From Cyanidioschyzon merolae (taxonomy: Eukaryota): 64,000 nucleotides of DNA. Below the pieces are notes generated by a model that was not told where the DNA came from, ran no database searches, and worked only from the letters and a program-made list of their open reading frames with translations. Shown here piece after piece: positions 1-48,220 of the stretch; within the stretch, counting starts at the first letter, position 1, and every line of letters begins with the position of its first letter. Location: assembly GCA_000091205.1 (NCBI GenBank), contig AP006501.2; one strand, given 5' to 3'. Made by a program: the position numbers and the translations under genes.

Positions 1-764
1 CCCCCCATTCCCCCCCATATCACTCCGGCCGGTTGGTCAAAGCGGAAAAGCGTCTGTTAATTCTATGTCTATTGTTTCAGATTCAATAGTGAATTTCCTT
101 CCGCGCTACAGCCGGAATTTATGCCATCTGTACTAGCGACCTCTGGCCCAGCAGAAGTACTACCGATTTTATCTTGCGATACTTTCTCTTTACATATGTA
201 TGTGTAGGAGCATCGCTTGGATTAACAGTATCATTAGGGAATTCTCTCCAGTTCTACCTTTGTTCACAAAAACTTTCTAGTTTCCGGCTATCCCAGGTTG
301 CCTGATCGATATTTGCTCTCGTTGCGGCGTCTATTTTTTCGAGCATTATTTTGAGCTGCCGTCGCTGTTCCCCACTCTCGTCTGCACTCTTCTGTTTATA
401 CATATTATCGTGCATCGGTATCGAGCCTTGAGCACTCGCCGTGGCATCTCCGTCGCTGGTGTGGATGCACTACGGAACAGATCAGCTTTCGCATACCACT
501 AAGCGCTTCGGATTTGGCTCGTTGCTCGCGACACGAAATTTAGACTTTTCATATATGCTGGGTGTCTCCAAGCTGGACAGGCAGTCTCTCTGCTGCGATG
601 GTGCGACGCGGTCTACTATTCGTCTACCGCAATCTAGGTGACGCTTAGACTCTAAAAAGCAGATCCAATTTCCAGAATCTATTGTTTTTCGATTGAGATT
701 GTAAGGTGGGTTGCATCACTCGCAACATTGTGGTCACCCGGACTAGAGGCTGGTAGAGTCTCGC

Positions 765-3410
765 TGCTCGCCGACCCTCCTCCCAAATGTGATTTTTTGA
801 CCACATGCGAATACTTCTTTCTGTTAACGTCTACAGTCAGTGGCGTTTGTATTTGCTATTCCGTTTTTCGATATTGTCTCTCTTTGGTATTTTCTATATC
901 GTCCGCCCTGGTAGCGCATCGCGAATTCTTGCCGTTACGTTACACTCTGTGCGTCTCGCCGATCATGGGGAACGTGTTAATGACCTCTTCTAGAGCGACT
1001 GCTCCATTGGGGCCACTTGCATTCTTAATCGAATGGTAGCAAAGTATAGTTTTGTATTCAATGGCGTTTCTAACTTCTAGTAAGAGTATTCAACTGATTT
1101 TCGCCATTCAACGCAGAGGTGTCCGACGAGTTTTTTGCTAAAAAATGTCAGACTTTTGTAATATGAGGTTGTGTGTTATGGATGGCCGTTGTTGCCGAAT
1201 ATCGGGAAAAAAGGTGACATAGTAGCTAATTCCAGAGGACTAGGAAAGAAGTGGAAGCGAAATGGGGAGGTGCTACGACGAACGCTGCACTAGTTTCGTG
1301 TCTATGTCGATATGGTTGTGGAATCCTGTCGTCTCCAACATATCAATGTTCCGTACGACTGAACGCTCCAAGATGCAATCAGAAACTGCGTCGACTCGCA
1401 CTCCAGGAATGATTGTTACTCTCCTTTAGAACTGACGCATTTGGTGAGCGAGCTCCATCGCGACGTAACGCACATCGCAAAATTGATCTTTCCGGAACAC
1501 TTTTTCAAAACAGAGTTTCATCTACTATCTGAATGCTTGCAATGGGGGCGCATCGCGGGGAAACTAGCGGGCGGATGCCTACGTCAAAATTTACGACAAA
1601 TACCGCATCAACGGTGCTGGACACAGGAGTGACGCAGATATTTACGAATACAGGGCAATTAGGTGCCTCATGAATGTGAGGAACCATAGGATCCTAATCC
1701 TCGATTGTATCATGATACGCGTTGTCATTGTGCTGTACCCGGGCCTGTTTTGCGAAGGGATGCTGGCAATCATCGATGGTATGAAGAACGATCGCCAGCA
1801 TGAACAGGAGATCATATTTGTCGACAAGAGAACATCACACAGGTGAAAAAATAGGTATTCTGTTATCCACGCAAGTATTCAAAAGCATCGTTCGGTCTCG
1901 GGACTTGCCAACCCAAGAGAAAAACCTGTCATGTATGGAAAATATGAAGAGAGATGTTCCTTCCTCATCTTGCCCTACTTCATGGTTTTTGGATCGAGAT
2001 CTCGAACGCAGGGCCGAAATGGAGCTGAGTATGGATACAATGGAGTATTGGAGAGTTGGCACTGAAGAACTCCTCCAGTTGCGCTTTTTTCGACCGGTTA
2101 TGCGAATTCCTGTCACATGTTTTGATTTTTGACTTTAGAGTTCTTTTCGCCTTCATGGAAGAGGTTTATCCAGTGCCCGATGGAAGCGACAGAGACGTAA
2201 CCGGCGAAGACCGGGATACCTACTAGATGCGGAAGTTCGAGTTCAAGCGTCCGAAACCGGCCAGTAAAAGGTATTCACCGGGGCCATGGATAACGATCGG
2301 GTATACATATATGTACACTTTCAGCGGTAGCAGGCATTTGTCCCATCCCGTCTTCTTTACCGCCCTCGCCGAAGCACGGAAACAGGAAGGCCGGCCATGG
2401 GATATATAATCCCCACGAGGACGACCTCGTCGTCGGCCTCAAATCCTGGAATACTGATTTTATAACCATCGTTGTTACAAGCGTTCGGAATATTTTACTG
2501 AATGTAGCTTACGTCGGAATGACAGGCGTCTTTTGAGGTTCTAGAGATCGACGTTCTACCCAGAAGCGGGAATCGTGAATACGAGGAAGAAAATTGAGAC
2601 TTGGGATGCAAAAGTGGAAGAGCATCTCGAAGTTGTGAGCGAGGTGAAGAGCCGAGGAGCGGATTTTCAGGCTTTTCAAGATTTCATGGATGTTCGTTTT
2701 GCTCATTGGGATGCGCTGTGGAAGGAGTATACAAAGCCCCGGTGGGCTTTTCTACGTGCGAATCTATACTGTCGGAAGCAGCATGCATTCGCGGACTTTT
2801 TCAATGAGTTGAGCTCCTTGAAGGAGAATGAAAGTCTGAGGCTCGTAGTAGCATATTGAGCATGGAGCTGGGCGTCGAGAAAGGGGACTACGCGTGCCCC
2901 AACGACAAGGACATTCAAAAAGTGTGCACGGCGTCTCGTTACGGTAACTGTAGATGAATTTGGAGCTTCGTATACACACCACGAGCTGTGATGTACACTC
3001 CACAGGGGCGAGATGGAAAAGTGCCAACGGAACCCTGAGGAAATAGCAAAGTACGGACCGCTGACGGAAGAGCAAATGGAAATGAGGGCAAAAGTTCGTG
3101 GACTCCTTGCATTAGTAGGTACAACGAACGATGGCGAGAAACGGATGGAGTTAATGAACCGAGACTTTAACGCCGCTATCAGTATCAGTAGATGTGCGGT
3201 GCTGGAGAAGAGACTTGCAAAGTAGACAAGAGACAACTTTGTTGGACAACCTCACAAAGCCGAACTATATGAGAGAAAGTTGGAAGCCGTAGTGGGTGGC
3301 CGGTCGAAAACGGCGGGGAGGCGTCTGCACATCAGCTGGAGACGTTATGTCTCGGGCGCCGGTGGCCACTACTGTACACGACCGGCGTTGTTCGACTTAG
3401 AAAGGCGTTT
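765..3410 (+). mobile_element. Fanzor/TnpB-like element copy 1. Heavily degraded, with an internal deletion that removes the RuvC-I segment; the left boundary is approximate.
   Basis: Frames at 1441-2130 are homologous to the N-terminal and middle region of the other copies (compare LVKEMRDDVTGIKTV / FFGKTFIRHLMLG). ORFs 2575..2859 and 3013..3225 carry HWDALWKEYTKPRWA, VDEF..SYTHHEL and MNRDFNAAISI. The conserved 3' tail ends GAAAGGCGTT at ~3401-3410. Confidence 0.6.
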
Positions 3411-3520
3411 CGCCGCGTAAGCTTCGCGAACCAGATCATCAGGAAACTTCAGGGCGCCGCGCTTAACTCGAAGTGCGCCGTACCTTCGGACTTGCTCGGA
3501 ACATCCGATGCGGATGAAGC

Positions 3521-5455
3521 CTAGCCGCAGGCACGACAACCACTTTGGGACGCGTCGCTCGAGCGTGGCAGAGTGATTGCTGGATTTTCATCAAAAAATC
3601 CGTATGGCTGTAGCATGAAGCCAGTGCTCATTGCCGGCTGCACTGGAAAGTCCTCCGGTCTCGGCAAGTGATGAATGCCGAACACGTGCCAGAGCACAAG
3701 ATCCGTATCCTCGATGCATCGATTCTGAGACACAAATCGAAGGATGCCGTCCTGTCCGTCCGAGAGATTCACGAATTCACCAGCTGGAAAGCGCTCTTCC
3801 GGGTCATAGGCTGTCACCCACAAATGACGACGGATAAAGCCGGAGCGCTGTCCAGAGGGTGAGTCCGGGTCAAGGAACGACGTGAGCGTATGTGCCGGTT
3901 CTAGTTTGTAGGCGACTGGCATATTAACACGATTCTTTTTGTTCGGATTCAACACTTTCCAATACCGGTGGCTGGCAGGATTCGCACAGCGACATGCCTC
4001 CAGCTCAGTTCGTAGCAGCGTCTCGGTGACGTAGTACGCATTCCCGTAGGGATTCGCAGCTGCATCCTCCGCTCGCGTATTACACTCTACAACAGAGTTG
4101 CGATCCCCGTCTACGCTGAGGTCCATCCGCACGCAGAAGTAATGCTGGTGAATGTGTCCTTCGACGCCAGGCATAACCTCAGTACCGTAGCGGCTCGGTC
4201 TGCCCGGCTCGCAGGCCACAGTGCTGATGACGCCAGTAGCCCGCATTTCGTACTCAATGGCGCCGTCCTGACGAAAATACCAGTATGAGGCGTACTCGTA
4301 ATTGCAAACCGTTGAAATGCTGGAGATGACGAGGCGTCTACCGCGCCGCGTTTCTGCACGGTCGGTGCGGAAATCCCAGTGCTTCCAGAGCAGGCCGGCA
4401 TCCTCTTCGTGAATGCAGATGGCGTTTGGTATGGTCAGCGGCTCGCCGTGCATCGTGGCAATGTGGGCGTCCATATAAACCACGCAACCGGTACAATCAC
4501 AATTCATCCGTAGCGAGTTCGCTAGCTTACCGATCCCGTACTCCCCAATATCAAAAACATTCTTTCGAAAGTGGGGCTCCACTGGCGTGCCGTACGGCAC
4601 GACCATCTCCACCAGGGAGAGCCTGCGAGCCACTGGGCGTCCAGCAAACCGAATATCATGCAGCGTGATACCCTCGCGTGCATTGAAACCAATCACCAGA
4701 GACCATTGATCCCAGGCAATTGTATGATCGTTCAGGACAAAGCTCGGTCCCTGGTCCTGCACAATGCGCAGCGGCTTCAAGGGCTTGCGAATATCAGTTC
4801 TCAGATTCGGTTCGTAATTGCATTCCGTTCGCGGTACGGGGATATTCTGCAGATCATAAACTTTGAGCACTTTATTGCCCAGGACATCCACCATCGCGTA
4901 AAGTCCTTCAACTGGGTGTGCATAGAGGTTGTCATCGGCATGATTCCGTACCCAGCAGAAAGCCAACGCAAGGTGGTGATCCTTCTCCTCAACGGAACCG
5001 AACGCCCCTGCCGACCACGGATCAATACAAACTAGACTCATGTCTTCGATACCGTGTTTCCTGCACGCAGCCTGGAACTCCGGACACGCCCGTACAGCTT
5101 CTTCTATAGCAGTGAACTGTTCAAGCTGGAGCATAGGGCGAGCGTTCGGGTAGTACTTTTTGGCGATTACGATCTCTTGCGAGAGCGAAACGATCAGCTT
5201 CCACACGCCAATAGAGCTTCTCCGGAAGATGAAGACCTCGGCCTCACGTTCGGTGGGCTTGCCGGCCACCCAGAGCTCTTTGGGTGGCTCGTGGAGCTGA
5301 ATTCGCTCAAAGAGCGGTTCCTCTGGGAAAGGTGCGCCCTGGCGGCCGATGCTGGCAGCACGTAAAATCTCCGCTGGCGTGAGCGGCGTCAACGGGTGCA
5401 TAATAGAGGTGTCCTGCCTCTTGTGCAGTACTGCAAAGACAACACGAGCAACCAA
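3521..5455 (-). CDS. Copper-containing amine oxidase (TPQ quinoprotein)
   Basis: 644-aa ORF. Carries the TPQ consensus N-Y-E-Y (CNYEYASYWYF) and copper-ligand histidines (GHIHQHYF). An alternative start is MHPLTPL at 5401. Confidence 0.8.
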   Translation of the reverse strand: MVARVVFAVLHKRQDTSIMHPLTPLTPAEILRAASIGRQGAPFPEEPLFERIQLHEPPKELWVAGKPTEREAEVFIFRRSSIGVWKLIVSLSQEIVIAKKYYPNARPMLQLEQFTAIEEAVRACPEFQAACRKHGIEDMSLVCIDPWSAGAFGSVEEKDHHLALAFCWVRNHADDNLYAHPVEGLYAMVDVLGNKVLKVYDLQNIPVPRTECNYEPNLRTDIRKPLKPLRIVQDQGPSFVLNDHTIAWDQWSLVIGFNAREGITLHDIRFAGRPVARRLSLVEMVVPYGTPVEPHFRKNVFDIGEYGIGKLANSLRMNCDCTGCVVYMDAHIATMHGEPLTIPNAICIHEEDAGLLWKHWDFRTDRAETRRGRRLVISSISTVCNYEYASYWYFRQDGAIEYEMRATGVISTVACEPGRPSRYGTEVMPGVEGHIHQHYFCVRMDLSVDGDRNSVVECNTRAEDAAANPYGNAYYVTETLLRTELEACRCANPASHRYWKVLNPNKKNRVNMPVAYKLEPAHTLTSFLDPDSPSGQRSGFIRRHLWVTAYDPEERFPAGEFVNLSDGQDGILRFVSQNRCIEDTDLVLWHVFGIHHLPRPEDFPVQPAMSTGFMLQPYGFFDENPAITLPRSSDASQSGCRACG

Positions 5456-6070
5456 GATTACCTCGGTTGCGCTTCAAGGCGCCTCAGCGTCTATCGTACC
5501 AAGGACTGCAACGGAAACCGGGAGCAATGAAGGAATAAATTCCGTTGAGCGATCAACTTGCGACATAGATGTACAGAACGTACAGGAGCAATCTGGGTGT
5601 CGGACACGTCTCCTTCATCGAGCGGGGAGGCGTCTCGCGCAGTGCACGCATCGCTCTCGGTGAGCGTATACCTGGGAAATCAGGCAGTCAACTGACACGA
5701 TGCGTATGCCGTTGAAGCGAAACGCGATCCTGATCAGTAGGGTGTTGTTCAACCGGAAAAAGTTGGATTTCAATTCAGGTCGTAGCCAAGAACATTTTTT
5801 CACTTCGTATTTGTTTCAACCTTCAAACAAGTCTAGACAAGTGGTTTTTCGCAGTATATGACAGAAGCGTTCAAAGAGCGTTGTTTTTTTAAAAAAACCT
5901 AAAAAAGGAAAGCTTTGAGAAAGCAAGTTGACGATCCTGGAGGCCCAGGGTCGCCGGCCGCTAGAGACAAACAAAAAGCAGTGCCGAGTCCAGAAGAAAA
6001 GGAAGAGAAGAAGAACCGAAAGCGGGATGCCCTACGTCGGAGGCGGCAAGAAACATGACTGTAGAACGAG

Positions 6071-8310
6071 ATGGAGGTGAAAACCTTTCTTCTTGGACAT
6101 ATCAAGGATCCCTACAAGGAAAAGTTGCGAGAAACTATCGAAAAACGTGTCGACTCGTACTCCTTGAGGATTATGAAGGTTTCTTCATAACTATTCCATT
6201 TGGTGAAGGAGATGTGTCGCGACGTAACCTAGATGGAAATGGTGGCATTCCGGACAAGTTTTTCGATAAGACCTTTATTCGTCACTTGATGCTTGGCACA
6301 GAGAAAGCGCGGAAGGAAAATGAGCGGGTGTATGCGCTCCACGAAAAACATCCCTTTTACAGCTTCAAGGGTACTCGGTACAAGGGTGACCGGGATGTTT
6401 ACGACTATGGGGCGATGAAGTACCTCACGAACCTGAAGAACCATTTGACAGAGAACCTCGAACGTTCCATGATACGCGCCGTGATTGCACTCTACCCGGG
6501 CCTGTCTCGCCAAGGAAAATGGGCGATTATCATAGGCATCACCAAAGATCGCAAGCATGAAGATGAGATCGAACTCGTCGACAAGAAGACATCACGTAAG
6601 AGAAAGAATGAAGCTTCTGTCATCCGTGCGGCCATACAAGTGTACCGTGCAGTCTTGGGGTTGGCAAATCCGACAGACAAGATATCAGAGTTGAAAAAAG
6701 ATAAGGAATGATACTATCGCCTCATCCTGCGCTATTTTGTGTTTCTGGACCGAGAACTCAAACGCAAGGCAGAGGCGAGGCTGAGTGGGGAAAAAATGAA
6801 GAGTGGGAGAGACGGAAGCCTTTCCTAATGGGTAAGCGCTTCGACGTGGTTCCAATGTGCAAGATCAAGTCATATTTGTGACTATTGACTCCGGCGTCCT
6901 TCACGCCATCATGAAGGAGATCAGTCCGGATTTCAGTGTCAGCGAGGAGGAGTTCTCCGGTGAAAACCGGGAGACGTACTGGAAGAATATCTTCGGTTTC
7001 AAACGCTTGCGAGTGAGCAAGGAAACGTTGTTCACCGGAATGATTGATACCGATGGAGTAGCCTAGTGTGTACACTATCGGCGGTTCAAGAAAGATCGTC
7101 CTGGTCCGCCGTCGGCTGTGCCCGTGACGAAGGATAAAGAAAAGAATGAGGCGGATCCTGCGACGCTGGTGGTGGAGGAGAACGAACTTATTTTTGACGC
7201 GGCGAAGGATGAAGAAAAGAATGAGGCGGATCCTGCGACGCAGGCGGTGGAGGAGAACGAACTTATTTTTGACGCGGCGAAGGATGAAGAAAAGAATGAG
7301 GCGGATCCTGTGACGCAGGAGGTGGAGGAGAACGACCTTATTTTTGACGCGGCGAAGGATGAAGAAAAGAATGAGGCGGATCCTGTGACGCAGGAGGTGG
7401 AGGAGAACGACCTTGTCGTTGACGTGGCGAAGAATGAAGGAAATACGGAGGCGGATCTTACAATGCAGAAAGTGCAGGAGAACGACTTTGTCGTTGGTGT
7501 GGACCCTGGAAATACGAATATCATAACCATCGCAGCACCCAAGCGCGCGGAAGATGGTACTGACGGCAACTTACGTCAGAAAGACATGCGTCTTTCGAGG
7601 TTCTCAAGAGCTAGATATTACCGAGAATCCGGTGTAATGAATGCAAGGAAGAAAACCGAGAAATGGAATTCAGGAATGAAAGATCTCCCGGAACATTTGA
7701 GCGGGGTGACGAGCCGAGGAGCCGACTTTGAAGCTTTTCGTAAATTCGTGGAAGTTCGCATGGCGCATTGGGATGTGCTGTGGGAGGAGTATACCATGCC
7801 CCGGTGGGCTCGTTTGCGTGTGAAACTGTATTGTGGGAAGCAGCGGGCGTTCGCCAACTTTTTCAATCAGTTGAGCGCCCTCAAGGAGAATGAAAATCAG
7901 AAGCTTGTAGTAGCGTATGGGGCAGGCCACTGGAAGACCCAAAAAGGAACTACGCCAGCTCCAACGACAAGAACGTACAAGGAGTGCGCACAACGTTTCG
8001 TTGCGATACCTGTAGACGAGTTCCGAACATCCTATACACACCATGAACTGGGATGTACACTTCAGCGAGTCGAGATGAAAAAGTGCCGGCGGATCCCTGA
8101 GGAAATCGCCAAGTACGGACCGCTAACAGAAGAGCAAATGGAAAGGAGCGCGAAAGTTCGCGGACTCCTTGCGTAAGTAAGTACAACCAGTGGTGGGAAG
8201 GAACGTATGGAATTCGTGAACCGAGACTTTAATGCCGCTATCAATATCCGAAAATGTGCGGTGCTGGAGGAAAGACCTCCAGAGAAGACAAAAGGCAACT
8301 TTGTTGGATA
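6071..8310 (+). pseudogene. Fanzor1-like (TnpB-family, RuvC) nuclease pseudogene with frameshifts and a nonsense codon
   Basis: Starts MEVKTFLLGHIKDP (compare MVVKTCLLAHIKDP in copy 4 and MAVKACLLQHTKDP in copy 3). Frame changes near 6200, 6711 and 7066, and a stop at 8177. Ends after CAVLEERPPEKTKGNFVG*. Confidence 0.65.
7130..7504 (+). repeat. In-frame tandem repeat, 5 units of 75 bp (25 aa, acidic: [25 protein letters not shown]), inside copy 2 immediately upstream of RuvC-I
   Basis: The units are visible directly in the translation of 7118..8176. Copies 3 and 4 have a single unit at the same position. Confidence 0.85.
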
Positions 8311-8579
8311 GCCTCTAAAAGTCGAACTATATGAGAAAAAGTTGGAAGCAGTAGTGGGTGGCCGGTCGAAAAAGGCGGGGAGGCGCCTGCGCGTCAGTTG
8401 GTGACGATTTGTCTCAGGCGCGGTTTTCCCGCCACTACTGTACATGGCCGACGTTGTTCGACTTTCGAAAGGCGTTGATCGCGCGCGAATTTCGCGCTCC
8501 ACCTCTGTTCTTTGGCGCTCTCGCAGACCTGCGTGTGAAGTAGTTTCTGGATTCTCGACGCAAGTTTCGATCTCATAGT

Positions 8580-10091
8580 ATGAACCACCGTACGCCTCTT
8601 TCGGCTCGAGGTGAAGCACGGGCTGCCTATGCAGCGTTTGTACCCGCTACTGGAACAGTGTGGTCAGCGTCGAGACACCGGTCACTTGGCCGGAGCTATT
8701 TCACGGCGTCGCGTCCCGGAACGCTCCAACCACACTGCAGCAGTCGCGGAAAGAGACACAACGTAGACTGGCTGCGCAGTGCCATGAGGGTGCAAGCTAA
8801 TGGAGCGTCGTACCCGGGACGAGGCAACGACCGCCAACTGTCTTCGTTGCCGTTATCCAGCGACAGTTCGGCCCCGCCGTGTCTGATTAAAGTTATCGGC
8901 GTCGGTGGTGGTGGCGGCAACGCAGTGAACCGTATGGCAGATACAGGTATTTCGGGTGTGGAGTTCTGGGCGATCAACACTGACGTGCAGGCGCTGAAGC
9001 GCTCGGCGGCACACCATACGCTGAGCATCGGGAATAAGCTGACCCGTGGTCTCGGAGCTGGCGGCAATCCCGAAGTGGGTCGCAAAGCCGCCGAGGAATC
9101 GTGCGACCAAATTGCAGAAGCCGTCCGTGGCGCCGACCTGGTGTTTGTGACTGCCGGAATGGGCGGCGGCACTGGTTCCGGAGCCGCTCCAGTAGTTGCA
9201 GAGGCTGCCCGCGAGCAAGGCTGCCTAACCGTGGGCGTTGTCACCAAGCCATTCGCGTTTGAAGGCCGGAAACGCATGAATCAGGCGCTGGAGGCTATCG
9301 AGGCCTTGCGCGAGAGCGTGGACACGCTGATTGTCGTGAGCAACGACAAGCTGCTTCAGATAGTCCCTGAGAACACACCATTGCAGGACGCATTTCGAGT
9401 TGCAGATGACATCCTGCGGCAGGGTGTTGTGGGCATCAGCGATATTATCATCCGCCCTGGTCTCATTAACGTAGACTTTGCCGACGTCCGAAGTGTCATG
9501 GCACATGCGGGATCGGCCTTAATGGGCATCGGCACCGGCAGTGGCAAGTCCCGGGCCCATGACGCCGCCGTGGCAGCGATTTCCTCACCGCTGCTGGATT
9601 TCCCTATCGAGCGTGCCAAAGGTATTGTTTTCAACGTCACCGGTGGAGAAGACATGACCCTGCACGAAATCAACCAGGCCGCTGAGGTAATCTACGAAGC
9701 AGTCGACCCCAACGCGAATATCATCTTCGGTGCCCTTATTGATCAGCAAATGGAAAGCGAGATATCCATAACGGTGGTTGCCACAGGCTTCCCTCAGCCT
9801 AACGAGAGCGCCAACAGTGGCGGCTCCTCATCTACATTGAATGCTACGGCAAATGAGTTTTACCAGGCTGGTGCGGCACCGTCGTCACCAAAGCTTGGGG
9901 GAACGAGCCGCCGCGGCGGCATTGCTGCGGATACCGCCACTCACTTTGGGCGTGATGCGGGCGCTCGGCGCCCAGCTCCGGGCCCTCAAGTGCCGCCTCC
10001 CAATCGTCAGGTCACACCTCCGCCACCACAGCCGGGACCGTCGCGCACCATAGGGAACATTCCGGATTTTCTGCGTCGATTCCAAAAGTAA
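8580..10091 (+). CDS. ftsZ: FtsZ, organelle-type (probably mitochondrial) division GTPase, with an N-terminal presequence-like extension
   Basis: Tubulin/FtsZ GTP-binding signature GGGTGSG ([14 protein letters not shown]), [15 protein letters not shown], and the C-terminal conserved peptide IPDFLRRF. About 110 aa of Ser/Arg-rich N-terminal extension precede the GTPase core. Confidence 0.85.
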
Positions 10092-11334
10092 GTTTGGCTC
10101 CGTGCTCGCCCAGTGCCGCGAAGCGCATGCCCAAGTGCTCTCCGCCAGCTGGACGGATCTGAAACGAATTGCATTCGCTCGGTGCGCTCGTGCCCCGCCG
10201 CTCCTCCGTCCGAAGTGCTGCTGTATATGTTTCCATGAGCGACTTCAAAAGCGCGCACCGGTTACCCATAGCTCACTTCAAACGAGACGACAAGACGAGG
10301 CGCGAGCGCTGGGTCTGAGGTAGAGGTTTCTAGCATTCAGGAATGTCCTAAAATCGTGTTTTGAGGGTCAGTCTCCACCAGATATCCATCCTTTTACAAA
10401 ACAGACAACATCTGCTGCGCGCTTTGCCTGGCACGTGAATCTCGAGTCCGCGCTATCGGACGCGTCTCTGTCGACACGTGGATACTGCGTGCGCGAGAAG
10501 AGGCGCAGGCCTTGCACCGCCGATGCGTTTCCGTCGCGCAACGCGCCTAGCGCCCATCGCAGCATCCACAGCGTGGAACGATCACACCGGCAAATACATC
10601 GCATTCACGCAATGTGACGTCACAAAACGCATACGCACGGATACGTACACACACGCACACGCGCGAAAACAGAACAACATGTGCATGCGTGCAAGCGTCG
10701 ATCTGAGGGTGTGCCCGACTGCTGCCGCAGAGGCGCTCCAGCGCGTGTCCATGCGAGCATCGTCGGGCATCGTGAATCAGAACTGCGCCCTCATGGAAAC
10801 GGGCTACGTAGAGTTTTTCCATGTAGGCTCGGATCTCCGTGCGTCTGTTACAGAGTCGTCGAGCGCATCTGTCAAAACAGGTGACGTTTGAGGGCAAACG
10901 CACCGCACCGGGTTCACGGGAGATCGCTCGGGGCATGCGGATCGTTCAAGCGAGCAGCCGCTGCCAGCCTTGAGCGCCATCATAACGCGATCACACCAGT
11001 AGGTGCGTCGCGTTCCCGCGGAACCTGTGCGCTGCAGGTCAGCACACAGACACACGGTCCATACGCGGTGCACTGATGATGCTCGGTGCTACGCAGCGGG
11101 GATACCTCGCGTCAAGAGAACCGGCTGGCGAGCAACATCCTGGCGTCTGGCGTGAAACGTGCCTTGTCCAGCGCACAGAAAGTATCCCGGTGGAATGGAG
11201 AGATGCTCATCAGTCAATCTTCGAATGCGGTGGCAGTCACGGTACCGAACGCACTTTGTGCGCCAGCGTGCGCCCCGGGGATGAAGCGGCACCCGCCTAG
11301 TGCGACGCTTCGGCACCGGGTCACGTAGTCGCAT

Positions 11335-12312
11335 TCACTGCTGCTGCAACTGTTGCACAACGACCGAGTTCAAAAGATTCGCCTCTGCGAGTGTCTGTGA
11401 TTCTTCCTCTAGCGTTCGTCGTGGTAAAACCGTTTGGAATACGAAAGGTGTACCGGCATAGTCCGCGCGATGAGAACAAACGAGACTTCTGAGGTCGCGC
11501 ACGCGGTGCGTGGTATTCAAACGCATGACCAGACGGGATCCATCAGCTAGACGAACCTGGACTTGCGTCGTGGGTGCGTCAGGGTCCAGGTCATCGGGCT
11601 CGACCACATCGCTGGTGCACGTGTTCGCCGTTCGCTGCGACGTCGCAGCGGGTTCCTTGGGAGGCTCCTCAGCTGCCTCACCAAGGCGATATCCTCCACC
11701 CTCAAACGGCCGCCGACGGCTCGCAGCTGCCTTATCCGAGGGTGCAGTGTAGTCTTCGAAAGAGCGGTCGACAAGATTGACACTAAGCTCGCTTAGGTCG
11801 GGCTCTTCGAGTTCGCGTGGTACAACCCCTGCGTGGATATCAGCAAGAAACGCTGCTTGCGCGGGGTCGTCCAACCTTCGAAGCTCTCCGTCATCCACAA
11901 TAAAACCGTTTCGATAGAACGTAATTGTCTTTGTAACGATGCGCGTCCGAGCGGGTGTCGGAGCGCCTGCCGGCTCGTACGCATCGCTCCCCGGTGACTC
12001 CGTGTCGCCGAGTCTGTATCCCGTGCCGTGGAACGCTCCACTTGGACGAGCTGCACTCCCAGCGTCCGCAACCTGCGGTTGCCCGAGCTGCTGACGGGCC
12101 CGATCCAGAATAGCGGAAACTAGACGGTGTCGTGAACTACCAGACTGACGCGCAGCCGAGTTACGCCGCGGGTCTTGTGCTGGGTTACCTCGGATCGTCT
12201 GACCACTGGATTCGCCTCCGGCATAGTACTCGTTGTCGGAGCCGTCCTCTTCAACGTCTTCGTCTTTCTGTAGGTCAGCTAAGGTTTTAAACGGCATGTT
12301 CTCAAATAACAC
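11335..12312 (-). CDS. p47/Shp1-like cofactor of Cdc48/p97 (SEP + UBX domains)
   Basis: SEP-like segment TITFYRNGFIVDDGELRRLDDPAQAAFLADIHAGVVPRELE. UBX-like C-terminus QVQVRLADGSRLVMRLNTTHRVRDLRSLV...PFVFQTVLPRR. Confidence 0.7.
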   Translation of the reverse strand: MLFENMPFKTLADLQKDEDVEEDGSDNEYYAGGESSGQTIRGNPAQDPRRNSAARQSGSSRHRLVSAILDRARQQLGQPQVADAGSAARPSGAFHGTGYRLGDTESPGSDAYEPAGAPTPARTRIVTKTITFYRNGFIVDDGELRRLDDPAQAAFLADIHAGVVPRELEEPDLSELSVNLVDRSFEDYTAPSDKAAASRRRPFEGGGYRLGEAAEEPPKEPAATSQRTANTCTSDVVEPDDLDPDAPTTQVQVRLADGSRLVMRLNTTHRVRDLRSLVCSHRADYAGTPFVFQTVLPRRTLEEESQTLAEANLLNSVVVQQLQQQ

Positions 12313-15300
12313 TGCTAACTGTCTCGACGCTCCTGGCAGAACTGCTCGCCAACTGCGCCTGCGTTACCAGACAGTAAAAAGCGTATCTTCGACAAATGTC
12401 CGGCTAGCGCTGCTGTGTGATGCTATTCAGCGCTGCTGGCGACGCGGTCCAGCCGTTCAGCGAAGCGGCGCGCTCATTCGCAGCAAGTTCAGTCATGCTG
12501 CAGCCGGTATGCGAAGCGAGTGCTCCCAGACAGACTCGACCTGAGCAGGGTCACTGGATCGACCAAACCGCTGCTTCCGTAGGGAGGGCTGGTCCATGAT
12601 CAGGGGAGCATCGCAACCTCCACAAAGGCGCGGTAGTCGCTTTCATAACTGCCGACATGCATCAAGCAGCCGAGAAATTCTGGTTGAACGTATCCGTCTT
12701 ACACGGTAGAGGTGAACGGTATGCCGCCATTCGCGAACCCATGGAGTAGTGTCGATTACCTCTACTTCAGCCAGCGCTGTATGGGCTCCGGGACGCAGCT
12801 TCAGTTGGTTCTGATCGCTCGTCTAAATGTTAGCCCTAGTCCGTGGAAAAGCTCAGAAACCTCTACAGTACCTGAGAACATGCTCGGATTCCGAAATAGA
12901 CTATTCTCTAGGGGTTTCCGGTAATCAAGTCTATCAGCGCACCAAACGCGTGTTTGGGATAGAGGCTGTCGCTGCCGTGGAAACGTGCGCGCATACGCAA
13001 CAAAGTGTTTTGTACGCGCTGCACGGAGTGTCTAGTCCGCGTGACCGCCAGTGCCCTACTCAACCACCTGGATACAGGGGTTGTGGTTCATTCACGGACT
13101 GGGATGCACCGGTGGCAGCGACAGCGTCCCAGCTGCTGCACGGTGCGATGCATCACACCTCGCCGCCTAAGTAGATATATTGAGCCTTACAGGATGCACA
13201 CACTAGAGAAAACTACCTCATCTAATCTTCAATGGCCCCCATGGGTTTGTGCTGCGTCCTAGTTCCGGGTATCCGAAACTCCAGTCAGCATGGCAAGTGT
13301 GCTGCGCGTGGTGCGTTCTCGCACTCCACCGACACCCCAGCGCAAGTCGATGCCTTCAACCGAAGACAGGGACGGGTCTCGTCGCTGTTTTCATTTGGGA
13401 CCTGCTGTGCCATGCCCTTATCGGGTCAAAAAGAATCTTCAGCCCTAGGTGGCATCACCAAATTTGCTGATATTTCGAAGAAGCCCTGCAGGTATCTCTG
13501 AAATTGTCCACAGCGCGCCAAGTGTCGCAGAAGCACCCGAGGCGCAAGACGCTGGTCGTTGGCCTGCGCGCGGGTCTAGCGGCTTCAGAACGGGGATCAT
13601 CATCTTTGGCAAGCATTTTCGAAAACTGTCCCCGGATGCGATGCTGTATGCGAATAGAGCGCTGAACCCATCGCGCTGGTCTGTTGAACGAGCCCGCTGA
13701 CCTGCAACCGATCGTTCACGTGGCCTGTGCATTGGAGAGCAGGTCAACGACAAGTTCCATTAACGAGGACGACTCCCACGTGGGAAGCGCATTAACGACT
13801 GAAGACGACTGCTCCCAGTGAGATGCAACTTTGGGCGGCTCCGCTGGCTGCCAGGTCTCGGTCCGCATCCAAGGAGTACAAGTTTACCACGTATCCGGCC
13901 GGAAAAGAGTACATCATAGACACGAAGGAATGCGGCTGGGATAAAAGGTTCTGCTGCAGCATGACGCATGCCCTACCCTATGCCCGAGTTCTTGTTCGGA
14001 GCTCCGTATTCGGATACGCGGTGTGCATCCGCCGACGCGCTCAGGAGCGCACAGTTCGCCCCAGACCCCATCCTCTAAACAAGCCTCCGTACGGGAAGCA
14101 GCTCTATCTTGTTGGAACGGGCAGTACGCAGTGGCATCTCGTAGGCCGCTGATCTCGCTTTCCAGGTCACTGGTGGCACTCGCTCATTCGTAGAATCATG
14201 ATACAAACCTTCGTTCCTCCAGCATCACCATAACCATTATCATTACCATCCGCGCTGGACCTGGGAGGCGCTTCGCAGCTCGGAAAATGCCTCCCGAGCC
14301 CGCGCACTGCATCCAGTAGGGGTGGCGTGCTCGCGAATCACGAGGTCGCTGCGATGCGCGGTGCAATGATCATGCTATTGAAAAAGAACAGAGACTAGCC
14401 ATTAAATAGCACCGAGATGACGGTTTCTTTTCCCCTCTAGGGTAAACGTTAAAAAGGGCAAGAGGCTTCTATATTGTCGAAAGCTTACCTTATGCGTGGA
14501 ATTTTCCCAAAGCTTGACGAGTCTGCTAGGCAAGTGCATTTGCTCCAACCAGTGGCAGGTGCTTTCCTAACACCTGAGCAGCTCACCCGCAATACAGTTT
14601 ATTCTGGGACTAGACGCAGTAAAGCTGCATATGGGCGTCGCCCGGATCGCAGTAGACCCCTAGCATATCGCTTCGCGCTGCCGCAGGCAACAGGCTTGTC
14701 TGCGCAGCTTGCTGGCTCCCAGAATGATTACGCACTCCGACCCCGTATCAGATGCACCACACCTCGAGCCGTCCCCATCAGCAGTATGGCGAAGCGGTTC
14801 CGTCTCCGTGCCGCAACCGCACCAGCGGTATAAGCGCTACGACGAGTGCTCTCGAAAGGCACTCGGCGCAAGATAGAACGTATCCAACGACCAGTACACC
14901 CGAGAGGAACTGTGATTGGTGGAACTCGCATGCAGGCTGCATCATGATGGACACTTTCCTGAAAGCCATTATCCATTCCGAATTGTGGGATCCTTGCTCA
15001 TTGTAAACAATCTGTCGAACAAAAACACATGCAATGAACGTACGCGAGAGCGACGCTGGCGAGGAGCGCAACGCTGCGCTGCGTTTCCTCCAGCTCGAGT
15101 CTAGCCTGCGTCCAGTATTCGTGCTTGTCGAGCGGATGCGAGTCGCGACGCATATAGCGGCTTTCCAAGCGAGTCCTCTGCGAAGCTTGCGTTCGCTTTC
15201 CGTGAAGGGAGGCTCTACGACCGGGTTGAGTTGTTGCTCTATTGCTTCAGCGCGGCAAGCTGAACACTTATCGTGGCGAGCGAACGTCTCCACAGGTTGC

Positions 15301-35845: not shown

Positions 35846-38553
35846 AACGCCGTTCTAAAGAAAAGGCTGCTGTCACCAGTGGTACAGCAGTGGCGCGCCA
35901 CGCGCCCCCCAGACAAAACGTCTCGAGCAGATGCGCAGATGCCCTTCAGATTTCTTGAACCGGCCACCCAATACTGCTTCCAACTTCTTTTCATATAGTT
36001 CAACTTTGAGAGGTTGTCCAAGAAAATTTTCTCTTGACAGCTGTGGAGGTCGTTTCTCCAGCAGCGCACATTTCCTTATATTGATTGCGGCGTTAAAGTC
36101 ACGATTCACAAACTCCATATGTTTCTTGCCATTGGTAGTTGGACTCACTAGTGCAAGCAATCCACGAACTTTCGCCCTCCTTTTCATTTGCTCTTCCGTC
36201 AGCGGTCCGTACTTTTTTACATCCTCAGGGCTTCGCTGATATTTTTCCATCTCGACCGTCTGAAGTGTGCACCCCAGTTCATGGTGTGTATAGGACGTTC
36301 GGAACTCATCTGCAGGTATCGTAGCGAAGCTCCGTGCGCACTTCTTGTACGTTCTTGTTGTTGGAGCTGGCGTAGTTCCTTTTTTGGGTCCTCCATCGCC
36401 CTGCTCCGTATGCTACTACGAGCCTTTGACTTTCATCCTCCTTCAAGGCGCTCAACTGACTGAAAAAGTTGGCGACTGCAAGCCGCTTCCCACAATACAG
36501 GTTCATAAGCAGACGGGCCCATCGAGGCTTTGTATACTCCTCCCACAGCGCATCCCAATGAGCAACGCGAACTTCCATAAACTCCCGAAAAGCGTTAGAG
36601 TCCGCTCCTCGGGTCGTCACCTCGCTCAAAGCCTCCAGGTGCTCTTTCATTCCTGAATTCCATGTAATGATTTTCTTCCTTGCATTCATTACGCCGGATC
36701 CTCGGTAGTATCTCGCTCTCGAGAACCTCAACAGACGCATGTCTTTCTGACGTGAGTTGCCGTCAGTACCATCTTCCGCGCGCTTGGGAGCAGCGATGGT
36801 TACGATATTCGTAACCCCAGGGTCCGCGCCAACGACAAAGTCGTTATCCTGCACTTTCTGTGTGGCACAATCTGCCTCCTTCTCATCTTCATGCTTCGTC
36901 ACGGACACTATCGAAGACGGAACTGGACGATCCGCCTTCAAGCGCCGATAGTGAACACACATGGCTACTCCATCGGTTTCGATCACCCCTGTGAATACCT
37001 TTTGTTTGCTCACTTTCAGACTTGTGAAATCGAAGATATTCTTCCAGTACGTGTCCCGGTTTTCACCGGTACTCTCCTTCCTGCTGACATTAAACTCGGG
37101 GCTGAACTCCTTCATGATGCCGTAAAGGATTCTGGAATCGATAGTCACAAAATGTGACTCGATGTTGGACAACGGAACGACGTTGAAGCGCTTACCCAGA
37201 AGCGCAGCCTTTCGTCTCCCCCACTCTTCATTTTTTCCTCACTCAGCTTCATCTCTGCCTTGCGTTCGAGCTCACGGTCCAGAAACACAAAGTAACGCAG
37301 GACGTGGCGGTAGTATCTTTCGTTATCTTTTTTCAACTCTGATATGTTTGCTGCTCGGTTCGCCAACCCCAGTACCGCACGATGCTCTTGTATAGCCGCT
37401 CGGATGACGGAATCCTCATTCATGCTCCTGAGTGATTTCTTCTCGTCGATGAATTCAATCTCATCTTCATGCTTGCGATCGTTCGTGTTGCCATTGATAA
37501 TCGCCCATATCCCCTGGCGAATGAGACCGGGTAGAGTGCAAAGATGGAGCGTATCATGAAGTTCTTGAGGTTCATTGTTAAATGGTTCTTTAGACTGGTG
37601 AGGTAGTTCATCGCTCCGTAGGTGTAAATATTCGAATCCCCCCCTGTATCGAGTACCGTCGAAGCGGAACTCGGCGTAAATTTTGTGGAGGGCATGAACT
37701 CGCTCATTTCACCTAGACGTTTCACCGGTGCCAAGCATCCGGTGATGAAAAACGGTTTTGTTGAGAAAATCTTCCAGAATATGGACTGTTTTGATGTCCG
37801 TAACGTCATGATACCATTTTCTTAGGAAATCCACCATTCCTTGAGAAGCGTCACGAACACCGCTGGAGTTCGGCTCGACACGGTTCCAGATTGCCTCTCG
37901 AACGTTTTCCCTGTACGGATCCTTGGTATGTTGAAGAAGACAGGCTTTCACCGCCATCTCGTCGTACCGTCATCTTTTGCGTAGCCTTTGACGTAGGGCC
38001 TCCCGCTTTTACTTCTTCTTCTTATCCTGTTCCTTTGCACTTGGCACTGTTCTTCATTTTTTCGGGCTGCCGGCGACATTGGCGCCCAGGATCCTCCACT
38101 TCCCCTCCCGTAACTTTCCTTTTTCAATATAAAAAACCGAAACAACTTTGGATGGTACAGCTATTACGCATAAAAAAGCACTTGAATACATTAGTGTGAA
38201 GGTTGAAACACGATTGAGGACAAACAATGGGCTTTTCTACGACTTGAAATCGTTAAAATTTGTACGATAGAGCTACATGCTTCATTTTTCCGATGGAAAA
38301 ACACTTACATTGACAATGGATCCCAGATTGTGCTATAAATGGGTATCGGATTTGGCGAAAGCATCCATCATGCTGCATTCTAACTCCAGATTCCATTACG
38401 TATACTTCCTTTCAGATGTACTACTCGTCTCGTGCTTCCTGTCATTCGCCGGGTGCATGCGTTGATGCACCCGCCTTAGCGTCTAATCCGCTGATGCCGA
38501 TGCATAACAGAGACAGGACAGCGTTGCCGTACTACTGAGGGCGTCGGATCGAG
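35846..38553 (-). mobile_element. Fanzor/TnpB-like element copy 3 (pseudogene with frameshifts), head-to-head with copy 4
   Basis: ORFs 37709..37957, 37420..37809, 37145..37423, 36306..37172 ([16 protein letters not shown]; HWDALWEEYTKPRWARL) and 35873..36250 (MEKYQRSPEDVKKYGPLTEEQ...FVNRDFNAAINIRKCALLE). The left end (reverse complement) at 38553 is homologous to the solo left-end repeats (cctcgatccgacgccctcagtagtacggcaacgc). The right-end motif (reverse complement) ttagaacggcgttt lies at ~35846-35860. Confidence 0.7.
35873..37957 (-). pseudogene. Fanzor1-like RuvC nuclease pseudogene (copy 3)
   Basis: Colinear with copies 2 and 4. At least 3 frameshifts. Confidence 0.6.
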
Positions 38554-38682
38554 GAATGCTCCACCTGACACAGAGTCGGAGTATAGGATCATTCTGGGAG
38601 CCAGCAAGCTCCGCAGACAGACACACTGCCTGCGATAGCGTGAAGCTATATACCAGGACTCCACCGCGACCAGATCGACGCC

Positions 38683-42853: not shown

Positions 42854-43427
42854 TGATGGCGGTTCACGCCTCCAACAGGCACCCTTTTGGAGTCGACCTC
42901 AGTGCAGCAGCGTAGCGGTACCTGGGGGGGAGAATTCGCTGCACCCCACACAGGATTCCGTTGCGCGAGCTGTGCACGCACTTTGGCGAGCATTCGCGCT
43001 ACCTCGATGGCCAGCGCGCGCAACCGAAAGCGCAGCAGCGCCTCTGGCACGAATGGCGCCACCAAACTGCCTTCCGCAGCTTGCATGGTGGATGGTGTCG
43101 GATTGTCCAGGTTATGCGCTTATGCTAATGTGCGCGACGCGCATCGGCATCAAGGGTACCTTCTGGGCGCAAGGTCCAGCGAATCGGATACGCATACGGG
43201 GCCAGTGCGCTTTCTGCGCCTACCCACTGTGGTGGGTGTCAAGCACAAACCCGCATTGCCAACCGACAACAGCGCATTCCATGCATGATCACGAAGGAGA
43301 GCGGCGGCTCCCAGCATTCATCCTAACAGCCAAGTTTCTCCAGCGTGTCGTTCAGCAAAGGCAAGCCTGCATCCGCAGACTGTCCGAGCACATACCGACG
43401 ACGAGACCCGATTCTACGTCGGGTGAA

Positions 43428-43745
43428 GCACGCCTCAAGCCGACGCCCTCTCGGGTATAGAAAAGCTGTTCTAGCTCTATGAACTATCTGCTCTAGCATT
43501 TAAGGTCCAAAGGCGGATACGGAACGGCAGGCACTAGGCACACCCGATGGGACGTATGAAACGGCCGGAATATCCGAGAAGAGGTATCGGTAATGTAACT
43601 TGGAGGTTCGGGGGTTTGATGGACACCTTACCGCCCACTGAAAAAAACCACAAAAAAAGTAAGAAACAAATGCGCTTAATCGGAGAACGCTGGCCGAAGT
43701 AAACGTGTTGTCAGTGAAAAAAATCCGAACGTGCTGCTGTGGTGG
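43428..43745 (+). repeat. Solo left-end fragment (~320 bp) of the Fanzor-like element family (repeat A)
   Basis: ~80% identical to 50483-50812. Also homologous to the left-end regions of copy 3 (reverse complement at 38553 and below), copy 4 (38683+) and copy 2 (5459+). Begins CCTCAAGCCGACGCCCT. Confidence 0.75.
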
Positions 43746-47894: not shown

Positions 47895-48220
47895 AACTTG
47901 GTATCATGTATGTTCAATAGAGCGAAAACGTTTCGCAACCATGTAGGTTCAATGAATACCCAGGCGCAGACGCCTCCCAGCCTGTTTTGACCAGCGGCCT
48001 GCTATCGGTTTTGATTTACCCAGGTGCACCTGTAGTCTGGGAGGCTGCCCACAAAGTTGGATCGCGTCAGTTCTGCGGATCTGGCCTTCAGCACCGCACA
48101 TCGTCTGATATTGATGGTGGCGTTGAGGTCTCGGTTCTTGATCTCCTTGCGTGCAGTGCCACTGGTTGAACGCACGATTGCAAGAAGTTTTAGAACTCGT
48201 GCTCGCTGTGCCACTAGAGG
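47895..48220 (-). mobile_element. Truncated Fanzor-like 3'-end fragment (copy 7)
   Basis: ORF 48002..48214(-) reads ..LLAIVRSTSGTARKEIKNRDLNATINIRRCAVL..NFVG. Frameshifted continuation ..AGRWSKQAGRRLRLGIH (compare VVGGRSKKAGRRLRVSW). The 3' tail is deleted and degraded. Confidence 0.55.

What the first reader, a model, noticed from the sequence alone, without database searches (positions are those of the whole stretch)
3411..5470. Copper amine oxidase gene bracketed by two co-oriented elements, with the left end of copy 2 touching its start codon
Copy 1 ends 110 bp beyond the amine oxidase stop at 3521. The left terminus of copy 2 (CCTCGG... at 5459) begins 4 bp from the ORF's first ATG at 5455. 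Any promoter for the amine oxidase on the minus strand therefore lies inside the element's left end. This is a TE-captured host gene and a possible composite unit.
Basis: seen in the sequence. Interest (0 to 1): 0.5.

Follow-up and report, generated by a model that had tools for sequence, protein, structure and literature searches.

The report
Amine oxidase between two dead transposons
A bacterial-type amine oxidase gene at the tip of a red-alga chromosome lies between two long-dead copies of a known Fanzor transposon family, and the whole tip seems to have been copied to other chromosome ends by recombination, so this is an ordinary, largely catalogued arrangement.

Summary
The window is the left end of Cyanidioschyzon merolae 10D chromosome 19: a telomere repeat at base 1, an amine oxidase (AO) identical to BAM82657.1, then FtsZ2-2.

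The bracketing is real. Two co-oriented copies of the published Fanzor1 element CMe-1A (the "WSV repeat") flank AO. Copy 1 is 261-3407 and ends 113 bp from the AO stop. Copy 2 is ~5575-8474.

The "touching the start codon" claim fails:
- 5455 is a TTG. The start is the ATG at 5401.
- No element copy (4 in the window, about 80 elsewhere, or the consensus) matches anything left of 5575.
- So 173 bp of non-element DNA lie upstream of AO.

Both copies are dead (lost start codons, 3-6 frameshifts, 9-12 stops) and only ~77% alike.

AO was not captured. AO next to FtsZ at a chromosome end is conserved in Cyanidiococcus, which has no elements there.

The telomere-copy1-AO-copy2 block is nevertheless duplicated. 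10D has AO paralogues on chromosomes 9, 19 and 20. A metagenome chromosome-end contig shares window 203 to ~8066, then drops to between-copy identity inside copy 2 and continues into an anion transporter. That pattern indicates subtelomeric recombination between element relics, not composite transposition.

Low novelty. One contig breaks at 5457/5458 and remains unexplained.

The parts
1..18 (.). Telomere repeat remnant (CCCCCCATT, then CCCCCCCAT): the chromosome end
   Evidence: Read. C. merolae telomere unit is AATGGGGGG, and only about 2 repeats were sequenced at the ends (PMC1955436). The paralogous contig L087 also starts with (CATTCCCCC)n.
261..3407 (+). Copy 1: near full-length, heavily decayed CMe-1A (Fanzor1) element. 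Its 3' end points at the 3' end of AO.
   Evidence: blastn of the CMe-1A consensus: positions 6-3145 match 266-3387 at 71%. The right end is aligned with 40 other copies. Start codon lost, 6 frameshifts, 12 in-frame stops. The RuvC-I aspartate is lost: VVGLKSW in place of VVGADPG, read.
3521..5401 (-). Copper-containing amine oxidase CDS (626 aa), identical to C. merolae 10D BAM82657.1 / XP_005538693.1
   Evidence: Closest non-Cyanidiales relatives are acidophilic Alphaproteobacteria at 58-62% identity.
5402..5574 (.). Non-element DNA upstream of AO. The AO core promoter may lie here.
   Evidence: No match to any element copy or consensus. 97-100% identical in the contigs that carry it, some of which are paralogous AO loci: L087, L086, L088, L089, L003, L100. 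L090 diverges after 5457.
5575..8474 (+). Copy 2: 5'-truncated, decayed CMe-1A-family element, divergent from AO. Degenerate Fanzor1 ORF about 5905-8415.
   Evidence: Consensus 672-3169 matches 5679-8474 at 83-87%. 5575-5679 matches only the last ~100 bp of an alternative ~500-bp 5' module shared by 12 or more copies. ATG changed to TTG at 5905-5907, 3 frameshifts, 9 stops. RuvC motifs VDPGNTN, VDEFRTS and NRDFNAAINI are still readable.
7123..7497 (+). 75-bp in-frame tandem repeats (4-5 units) inside copy 2. Copy number differs from the paralogous copy.
   Evidence: consensus 2117-2196 repeated. L087 has 150 bp less here.
8066..8474 (+). Last ~410 bp of copy 2, lying beyond the proximal edge of the duplicated subtelomeric block (inferred recombination junction at about 8066)
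   Evidence: Mismatch density between window and L087 jumps from about 7% (7430-8065) to about 20-24% (8066-8476) and is random after 8476. In this segment L087 is no closer to copy 2 than unrelated copies are.
8332..8474 (+). Conserved non-coding 3' tail of copy 2 (the equivalent in copy 1 is 3265-3407), placed where Fanzor/TnpB guide RNAs are encoded
   Evidence: Conserved long stem AGUAGUGG..CCACUACU in 43 copies. The consensus folds at -56.8 kcal/mol, z = -2.6. No informative covariation and no Rfam hit.
8580..10091 (+). FtsZ2-2 (CMS004C), the ancestral neighbour of AO
   Evidence: Pfam Tubulin and FtsZ_C. AO-FtsZ divergent adjacency is conserved in L001 (Cyanidiococcus) and L002. CMS004C = ftsZ2-2 (PMC2646357).

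Best explanation
The window begins at the left telomere of C. merolae 10D chromosome 19. A bacterial-type copper amine oxidase gene sits at its ancestral place next to FtsZ2-2.

In the Cyanidioschyzon lineage two copies of the Fanzor1 element family CMe-1A (the 'WSV repeat') inserted independently. Copy 1 is full-length and lies between AO and the telomere. Copy 2 is 5'-truncated and lies in the AO-FtsZ spacer, starting about 175 bp upstream of the AO ATG. Both have since decayed into pseudogenes and cannot move anything.

Later the whole terminal block (telomere, copy 1, AO, most of copy 2) was copied to other chromosome ends. The likely route is homologous recombination or break-induced replication started inside a resident CMe-1A copy. 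That is why the block's proximal edge lies inside copy 2 and why 10D has three near-identical AO genes.

Shown: element identity and coordinates, decay, the CDS start, synteny, and the existence and extent of the shared block. Inferred: the order of events, recombination as the mechanism, and that the AO core promoter lies in 5402-5574.
For: Identity of the locus
- The AO protein equals BAM82657.1 on a 1,282,939-bp record, which is the size of chromosome 19.
- A telomere repeat sits at base 1.

Element family
- The published CMe-1A consensus aligns to 266-3387, 5679-8474, 35848-38281 and 38291-41467.
- A profile of the protein family hits solved Fanzor1 structures: 9cf0 at 1e-20, 8gkh at 7e-11, 9cer at 2e-7. 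The DPG, DEFRT and NRDxNAAxN motifs align.

Left edge of copy 2
- It lies at 5575-5599. 5402-5574 is unique.

Decay
-.
- Copy 1 and copy 2 are 66-78% alike, no closer than random pairs of copies.

Synteny
- Relatives have AO next to FtsZ without elements.

Duplicated block
- There are three 10D paralogues differing by 7-13 aa, on chromosomes 9, 19 and 20.
- L087 reads telomere, copy 1', AO', copy 2', anion transporter, and aligns to window 203-7339 at 95%.
- Against copy 2, L087 is 99%, 95% and 93% identical in three successive segments, where the next-best copies reach 82-87%. It then falls to background after about 8066.
- Nozaki et al. 2007 list amine oxidase and anion transporter among terminal-region genes, and separately report homologous DNA elements shared between chromosome ends.
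Against: - The paralogous locus was seen only in metagenome contigs of close relatives (L086-L089, L100), not in the 10D chromosome 9 and 20 sequences, which the tools could not reach.
- A junction inside a repeat is also what an assembly chimera would look like. The graded 99-95-93% identity before the drop argues against a chimera but does not exclude one.
- The non-element spacer left between AO and FtsZ is only 275 bp, against 1.2-1.4 kb in relatives. The copy-2 insertion was therefore not a clean event, and the intergenic DNA is too diverged to align.
- One contig (L090) breaks homology at 5457/5458, which this account does not predict.
Confidence: 0.78

Rival explanations
1. Composite transposon or TE capture: the two co-oriented elements mobilised AO as one unit using their outer ends, and the other AO copies arose by transposition of that unit.
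For: - Both outer ends are present: copy 1's left end at 261 and copy 2's right end at 8474.
- The three parts are found together at a second chromosome end.
Against: - The shared block runs past copy 1's left end to the telomere and stops about 410 bp short of copy 2's right end.
- The copies are about 77% alike and dead.
- CMe-1A has no TIRs, no defined TSDs and no known transposase (PMC3627910; no inverted repeats).
- AO is at its ancestral syntenic site.
Confidence: 0.04
2. One reading: 5458-5574 is a private 5' segment that arrived with copy 2, so the element abuts the AO leader and supplies most or all of the AO promoter.
For: - Contig L090 carries an AO that is 98% identical to the window from 3155 to 5457.
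- Copies of this family have at least two alternative 5' modules. The family's 5' 635 bp is itself a separate element.
Against: - It rests on a single metagenome contig.
- Fifteen other contigs that carry the AO 5' end keep the window-type sequence past 5458: L003, L086-L089 and L091-L100.
- 5458-5574 matches no element copy or 5' module.
- L090's upstream DNA does not reappear beyond copy 2's right end, so L090 is not an empty site.
Confidence: 0.15
3. Two unrelated old insertions that merely happen to flank AO. The elements had no part in the duplication. The apparent junction inside copy 2 is an assembly artefact or later gene conversion from a third copy.
For: - The element family is dense here, covering 22% of the window.
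- Co-orientation is a coin toss.
- L087 is a metagenome assembly, and repeats are where assemblers misjoin.
- Mismatches in 7680-7930 are patchy, as gene conversion would produce.
Against: - Segments B and C of copy 2' are specifically closer to copy 2 (93-95%) than to any other copy (86-87% at most), and only the last 410 bp are not.
- The neighbour beyond it is the anion transporter, which Nozaki et al. also list among the terminal-region genes.
- Five independent assemblies (L067/L087, L086, L088, L089, L100) carry AO' together with copy 2's left part. L086-L088 also extend well into copy 1, and L089 reaches only its last ~280 bp.
Confidence: 0.2

Closest known systems
CMe-1A (Repbase; Bao & Jurka 2013, PMC3627910), the 'WSV repeat' or 'novel interspersed repetitive element' of C. 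merolae (Nozaki et al. 2007, PMC1955436)
   Same: The consensus aligns to both flanking copies and to two more in the window. The features match: a ~3.2-kb unit, one Fanzor1 ORF, no TIRs, about 70-85% identity to the consensus, and a 5' ~640 bp that also exists as the solo element TE-N2_CMe (14376-15016).
   Different: Nothing essential differs. Copy 2 lacks the consensus 5' 671 bp and carries instead the last ~100 bp of a second 5' module seen in metagenome copies. Copy 1 is unusually diverged (71%).
Fanzor1 RNA-guided nucleases (solved: Parasitella 9cf0, Spizellomyces 8gkh, Guillardia 9cer)
   Same: There is profile-level homology over the RuvC domain with the three catalytic motifs aligned. 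A conserved, structured non-coding tail sits at the element's 3' end, where the guide RNA is encoded in characterised systems (the position of the guide RNA is from my own knowledge of the Fanzor/TnpB literature).
   Different: The copies here are pseudogenes. No guide RNA was demonstrated: there is no covariation signal and no Rfam family. Structure prediction failed (pLDDT 39).
Subtelomeric duplicated blocks of Cyanidiophyceae (Nozaki 2007, Fig. 3 'homologous DNA elements'; Cho et al. 2023, PMC9812998)
   Same: A telomere-adjacent block carrying a probably adaptive, probably HGT-derived gene, present at several chromosome ends at 95-99% identity, with a discrete proximal edge.
   Different: The passages read from those papers mention neither amine oxidase duplication (0 occurrences in PMC9812998) nor block edges lying inside the interspersed repeat. 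That detail is the only possibly unreported point here.
Bacterial composite transposons (Tn5/Tn10 type), and repeat-mediated ectopic recombination at yeast subtelomeres
   Same: The layout looks like a composite: repeat, gene, repeat, co-oriented. Functionally it behaves like dispersed-repeat-mediated exchange between chromosome ends (comparison from general knowledge).
   Different: No transposase, no near-identical arms, and the unit is not bounded by the outer ends. It is therefore not a composite transposon.

Membership tests
CMe-1A element family | DNA homology to the published 3169-bp consensus along its length | tested here: met
   copy 1 covers consensus 6-3145 (71%). Copy 2 covers consensus 672-3169 (83-87%).
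CMe-1A element family | Single Fanzor1 ORF (CMe-1, 734 aa) in the element | tested here: met
   the ORF is recognisable in both copies but disrupted (start lost, 3-6 frameshifts, 9-12 stops).
CMe-1A element family | No terminal inverted repeats; TSDs undetermined | tested here: inconclusive
   No inverted repeats in 1-12000. Flanks of about 40 copies show a T-rich left flank and a TTTGTT right flank, but no clear duplication.
Fanzor1 / TnpB-like RuvC nucleases | Sequence-profile homology to characterised Fanzor1 proteins | tested here: met
   9cf0 at 1.2e-20, 8gkh at 7.1e-11, 9cer at 2.1e-7, using a 40-sequence family profile. Single-sequence and Pfam searches gave only a sub-threshold Cas12f1-like_TNB hit.
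Fanzor1 / TnpB-like RuvC nucleases | RuvC D-E-D catalytic motifs | tested here: met
   In the family and in copy 2: VDPGNTN, VDEFRTS, NRDFNAAINI. Copy 1 has lost the first aspartate. Both ORFs are broken, so no activity is expected.
Fanzor1 / TnpB-like RuvC nucleases | Guide (omega) RNA encoded at the 3' end of the element | tested here: inconclusive
   Conserved stem and z = -2.6. No covariation. No Rfam hit.
Composite transposon | Unit bounded at new sites by the outer ends of the two flanking copies | tested here: not met
   The shared block runs to the telomere and ends about 410 bp inside copy 2.
Composite transposon | Flanking copies closely related and at least one able to supply transposition functions | tested here: not met
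   66-78% identity. Both are pseudogenes. No transposase is known for the family.
TE-captured (transduplicated) host gene | Gene lies at a non-ancestral site inside or with the element | tested here: not met
   The AO-FtsZ adjacency at a chromosome end is shared with Cyanidiococcus and a second relative that lack the elements.
Subtelomeric segmental duplication | Telomere-adjacent block present at two or more chromosome ends with different proximal neighbours | tested here: met
   Three 10D paralogues on chromosomes 9, 19 and 20. In L087 the proximal neighbour is an anion transporter, against FtsZ in the window.
TE-derived promoter | Transcription start or core promoter inside element sequence | not testable with these tools
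   No transcript or TSS data. The element starts 173 bp or more from the ATG.

The most novel reading that the evidence does not exclude
Dead Fanzor1 (CMe-1A) relics, about 5% of this very compact genome, act as the homology tracts that delimit and spread subtelomeric gene blocks between chromosome ends. In this case a junction about 410 bp inside copy 2 carried a probably bacterial-derived amine oxidase to two further ends. A bolder variant is that 5458-5574 came in with copy 2, so the element supplies the promoter of the AO copies that carry the window-type upstream sequence.
Probability: 0.4. Interest if true: 0.35.

Novelty: already known. Interest (0 to 1): 0.2.

Why it matters
Little changes for biology at large. 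The genome, the gene, the repeat family and the existence of shared terminal blocks are all published. The finding is a useful calibration case: a TE-gene-TE layout that looks like a composite transposon turns out to be two unrelated, dead insertions inside a recombining subtelomere. The one point possibly worth a specialist's attention is that the edge of the duplicated block falls inside a Fanzor1 relic. That would give these abundant relics a structural role in moving adaptive, horizontally acquired genes between chromosome ends in Cyanidiales.

Tried and rejected
- Exact-protein look-ups of the window AO and of the chromosome 19 and chromosome 9 AO proteins (P0178, P0173) found no contig. 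The 10D paralogous DNA could not be read, so metagenome contigs served as proxies.
- Single-sequence searches of the element protein gave nothing above threshold: Pfam, PHROGs, and PDB by phmmer and by an 8-sequence profile. Only the 40-sequence profile built after the exhaustive search worked.
- AlphaFold2 on P0121 with 28 homologues gave pLDDT 39 and pTM 0.23. No fold search was run on it.
- I looked for an empty site by aligning the AO upstream and AO-FtsZ spacers of the window, Cyanidiococcus, L002 and L004. There was no similarity above shuffles.
- The covariation test of the 3' tail was uninformative, because the copies are neutral relics.
- The Rfam gathering scan of the whole window gave 0 hits.
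- The sigma-70 promoter and terminator scan is irrelevant for a eukaryote and was ignored.
- I considered and rejected L067 as the orthologue of the window locus. It is part of L087, whose AO matches the chromosome 20 paralogue (1 aa difference) rather than the window copy (8 differences).
- Literature searches for the AO gene's regulation and for Fanzor relics at subtelomeres found nothing relevant.
Full report
WHERE THE WINDOW COMES FROM

The window opens with CCCCCCATT-CCCCCCCAT. This is the reverse complement of the AATGGGGGG telomere unit that is unique to Cyanidioschyzon merolae, whose published chromosome ends carry only about two repeats (PMC1955436).

The amine oxidase (AO) protein read from the ATG at 5401 is identical over all 626 residues to BAM82657.1 / XP_005538693.1, 'copper-containing amine oxidase [C. 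merolae strain 10D]'. That record is 1,282,939 bp long, which is the size of chromosome 19.

The next gene, 8580-10091, is an FtsZ. ftsZ2-2 is CMS004C, the fourth locus on chromosome 19. The window is therefore the left end of chromosome 19.

CHECKING THE OBSERVATION

The AO ORF, its stop at 3521-3523 and its domain content are as described.

Two + strand copies of one repeat family flank it. Aligning six right ends from the window, and about 40 from elsewhere, places copy 1's 3' terminus at 3407 (..GAAAGGCG), or at 3410 with a frequently conserved TTT.

The other half is not:
- 5453-5455 is CAA on the + strand, giving TTG rather than ATG.
- The only supported start is the ATG at 5401. It matches the annotated protein exactly, the Pfam N2 domain begins at its residue 2, and conservation with Cyanidiococcus and bacterial homologues begins at HPLTPL immediately after it.
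- CCTCGG starts at 5461.

WHERE COPY 2 REALLY BEGINS

Within the window, nothing matches 5402-5656.

I fetched 80 further loci carrying relatives of the element's protein from hot-spring metagenomes and searched window 5201-6200 against them. No copy aligns left of 5575. Seventeen loci start at 5575-5599 (some are duplicate assemblies of one copy) and most others start at 5637-5653.

The published consensus aligns from its position 672 at window 5679.

The 17 'long' loci share a different ~500-bp 5' module. Its own left end is well defined (L058:2606). Copy 2 has only the last ~100 bp of that module, so it is 5'-truncated.

Smith-Waterman comparison of 5458-5574 with every known 5' module gives z-scores of 2.1 or less.

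So 173 bp (5402-5574) of non-element DNA lie upstream of the ATG.

WHAT THE ELEMENTS ARE

Bao & Jurka (2013) described CMe-1A in C. merolae: about 150 copies, about 80% identical to a 3169-bp consensus, no TIRs, TSDs undetermined, one Fanzor1 ORF, and a 5' 635 bp shared with TE-N2_CMe. Nozaki et al. (2007) had counted 253 copies of the same 3.2-kb 'novel interspersed repetitive element', about 5% of the genome.

I took the consensus from their supplement and aligned it to the window:
- copy 1, 266-3387 (consensus 6-3145, 71%);
- copy 2, 5679-8474;
- a solo TE-N2-like element, 14376-15016;
- copy 3, 35848-38281 (minus strand);
- full-length copy 4, 38291-41467;
- several fragments.

Together these cover about 22% of the window.

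For an independent test of the Fanzor assignment, I built a 40-sequence profile of the protein family from an exhaustive HMMER search. It hits the solved Fanzor1 structures of Parasitella (1e-20), Spizellomyces (7e-11) and Guillardia (2e-7), with the three RuvC motifs aligned.

All four large copies in the window are pseudogenes:
- copy 1: start lost, 6 frameshifts, 12 stops, RuvC-I aspartate lost;
- copy 2: ATG changed to TTG at 5905, 3 frameshifts, 9 stops.

Copies 1 and 2 are 66-78% identical to each other, no closer than random pairs.

The ~140-nt non-coding 3' tail is conserved and folds with a long stem. This fits the position of Fanzor guide RNAs, but the evidence stops there.

WAS THE GENE CAPTURED?

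No. In Cyanidiococcus yangmingshanensis (76% AO identity), AO and FtsZ are divergent neighbours 1.2 kb apart, about 5 kb from the end of a 469-kb contig. Beyond FtsZ come SEP-UBX, DJ-1 and acyltransferase genes, in the same order as window 11-18 kb. A second relative shows the same AO-FtsZ pair.

tblastn with an intact family member finds no Fanzor remnant in either locus. AO is therefore at its ancestral position, and the elements are later, lineage-specific insertions.

The best non-Cyanidiales AO homologues are from Acidiphilium, Acidocella and Bradyrhizobium at 58-62% identity. This suggests an older bacterial origin, but it was not tested by phylogeny.

THE UNEXPECTED PART

The 90% cluster that holds the AO contains three C. 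merolae 10D proteins. They sit on records of 810,151 bp (chromosome 9), 1,282,939 bp (chromosome 19) and 1,621,617 bp (chromosome 20), and they differ by 7-13 residues.

A 12.6-kb metagenome contig, L087, encodes an AO one residue away from the chromosome 20 protein. Read from its end, L087 is: telomere repeats, copy 1', AO', copy 2', then an anion-transporter gene. Nozaki's Figure 3 legend lists amine oxidase and anion transporter among the terminal-region genes.

L087 aligns to window 203-7339 at 95%. Identity to L087, measured on L067 (the same contig), by region:
- copy 1: 88-97%;
- AO, its upstream DNA and the left of copy 2: 98-100%;
- the middle of copy 2: 95%, then 93%, where the next-best copies reach 86-87%;
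- the last ~410 bp of copy 2: about 80%, where L087 is no closer than unrelated copies.

Mismatch density jumps at about 8066. Beyond 8476 the two sequences are unrelated.

Five independent assemblies (L067/L087, L086, L088, L089, L100) carry AO' together with the left part of copy 2. L086, L087 and L088 also extend well into copy 1, and L089 reaches only its last ~280 bp.

The unit that has spread is thus the whole chromosome tip, and its inner edge lies inside an element. This is what ectopic recombination or break-induced replication between dispersed CMe-1A copies would produce. It is not what transposition by the outer ends of a composite would produce. Because AO-FtsZ is the ancestral arrangement, chromosome 19 is probably the source.

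CAVEATS AND ONE LOOSE END

The paralogous locus is known here only from metagenome assemblies, and a repeat-internal junction can be an assembly artefact. The graded identity before the drop, and the match to the published gene content of chromosome ends, argue that it is real.

The non-element AO-FtsZ spacer is only 275 bp, against 1.2-1.4 kb in relatives. Sequence was therefore probably lost around copy 2.

One contig, L090, matches the window from 3155 to 5457 and then continues with 572 bp found nowhere else. Fifteen other contigs that carry the AO 5' end keep the window-type sequence past that point. L090's upstream DNA does not resume beyond copy 2, so it is not an empty site.

L090 may be a third kind of AO locus, evidence that 5458-5574 arrived with copy 2, or a chimera. 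I give the second reading about 15%.

VERDICT

The bracketing is real but ordinary. The claimed contact between element and start codon is wrong by about 175 bp measured from the true start. The gene was not captured. The 'unit' is a recombining subtelomeric block rather than a composite transposon.

The gene, the repeat family and the sharing of terminal blocks between chromosome ends are already in the literature. The only possibly new detail is that the block's edge lies inside a Fanzor1 relic.

Noticed in passing
window 5457/5458; L090 (whole contig): One metagenome contig with a 98%-identical AO loses homology to the window exactly here and continues with 572 bp of otherwise unseen sequence. 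Fifteen other contigs do not.
   Followed up: partly
window 14376-15016 (-): Solo copy of the ~640-bp element corresponding to the 5' end of CMe-1A (TE-N2_CMe of Bao & Jurka), 79.5% identical to the consensus. More diverged pieces lie at 43152-43633 and 50488-50667.
   Followed up: partly
window 35848-38281 (-) and 38291-41467 (+): A 5'-truncated copy and a full-length copy of CMe-1A abut head-to-head only 10 bp apart. The full-length copy's left flank is the truncated copy, suggesting nested insertion or a preferred target.
   Followed up: no
window 61675-62195 (-) / 62185-62613 (+): Two 3'-end fragments of the element joined at their truncated 5' ends with right ends facing outward. This is a ~950-bp imperfect palindrome (78% between arms).
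   Followed up: no
window 53250-53714 (+); also 47966-48467 (-): A distant Fanzor-like remnant (32% identity to residues 592-747 of an intact family member), possibly a second, older family. Small CMe-1A fragments lie at 47966-48467.
   Followed up: no
window 7123-7497: In-frame 75-bp tandem repeats (25-aa acidic units) just upstream of the RuvC-I motif of copy 2. The paralogous copy in L087 has two fewer units, and intact relatives such as P0121 also carry several.
   Followed up: partly
flanks of about 40 copies (window and L005-L085): Immediately after the Repbase 3' end most copies read TTTGTT (often TTTGTTGTCGCTGCCGT). Immediately before the 5' end the flank is T-rich (TTTTTC or TTTTTT). 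Either the true termini are longer than the consensus, or the family has a target motif. TSDs were reported as undetermined.
   Followed up: partly
window 3521-5401 (-): Apart from other Cyanidiales, the closest AO homologues are all from Alphaproteobacteria, including the acidophiles Acidiphilium and Acidocella, at 58-62% identity over the full length. This looks like an old horizontal acquisition.
   Followed up: partly
L091-L099 (metagenome contigs): In several hot-spring samples one AO paralogue is split by a frameshift into 199-aa and 433-aa ORFs. At least one copy of the duplicated gene is therefore decaying in natural populations.
   Followed up: no
window 1-64000: CMe-1A-derived sequence makes up about 22% of this chromosome-end window, against about 5% genome-wide.
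   Followed up: partly
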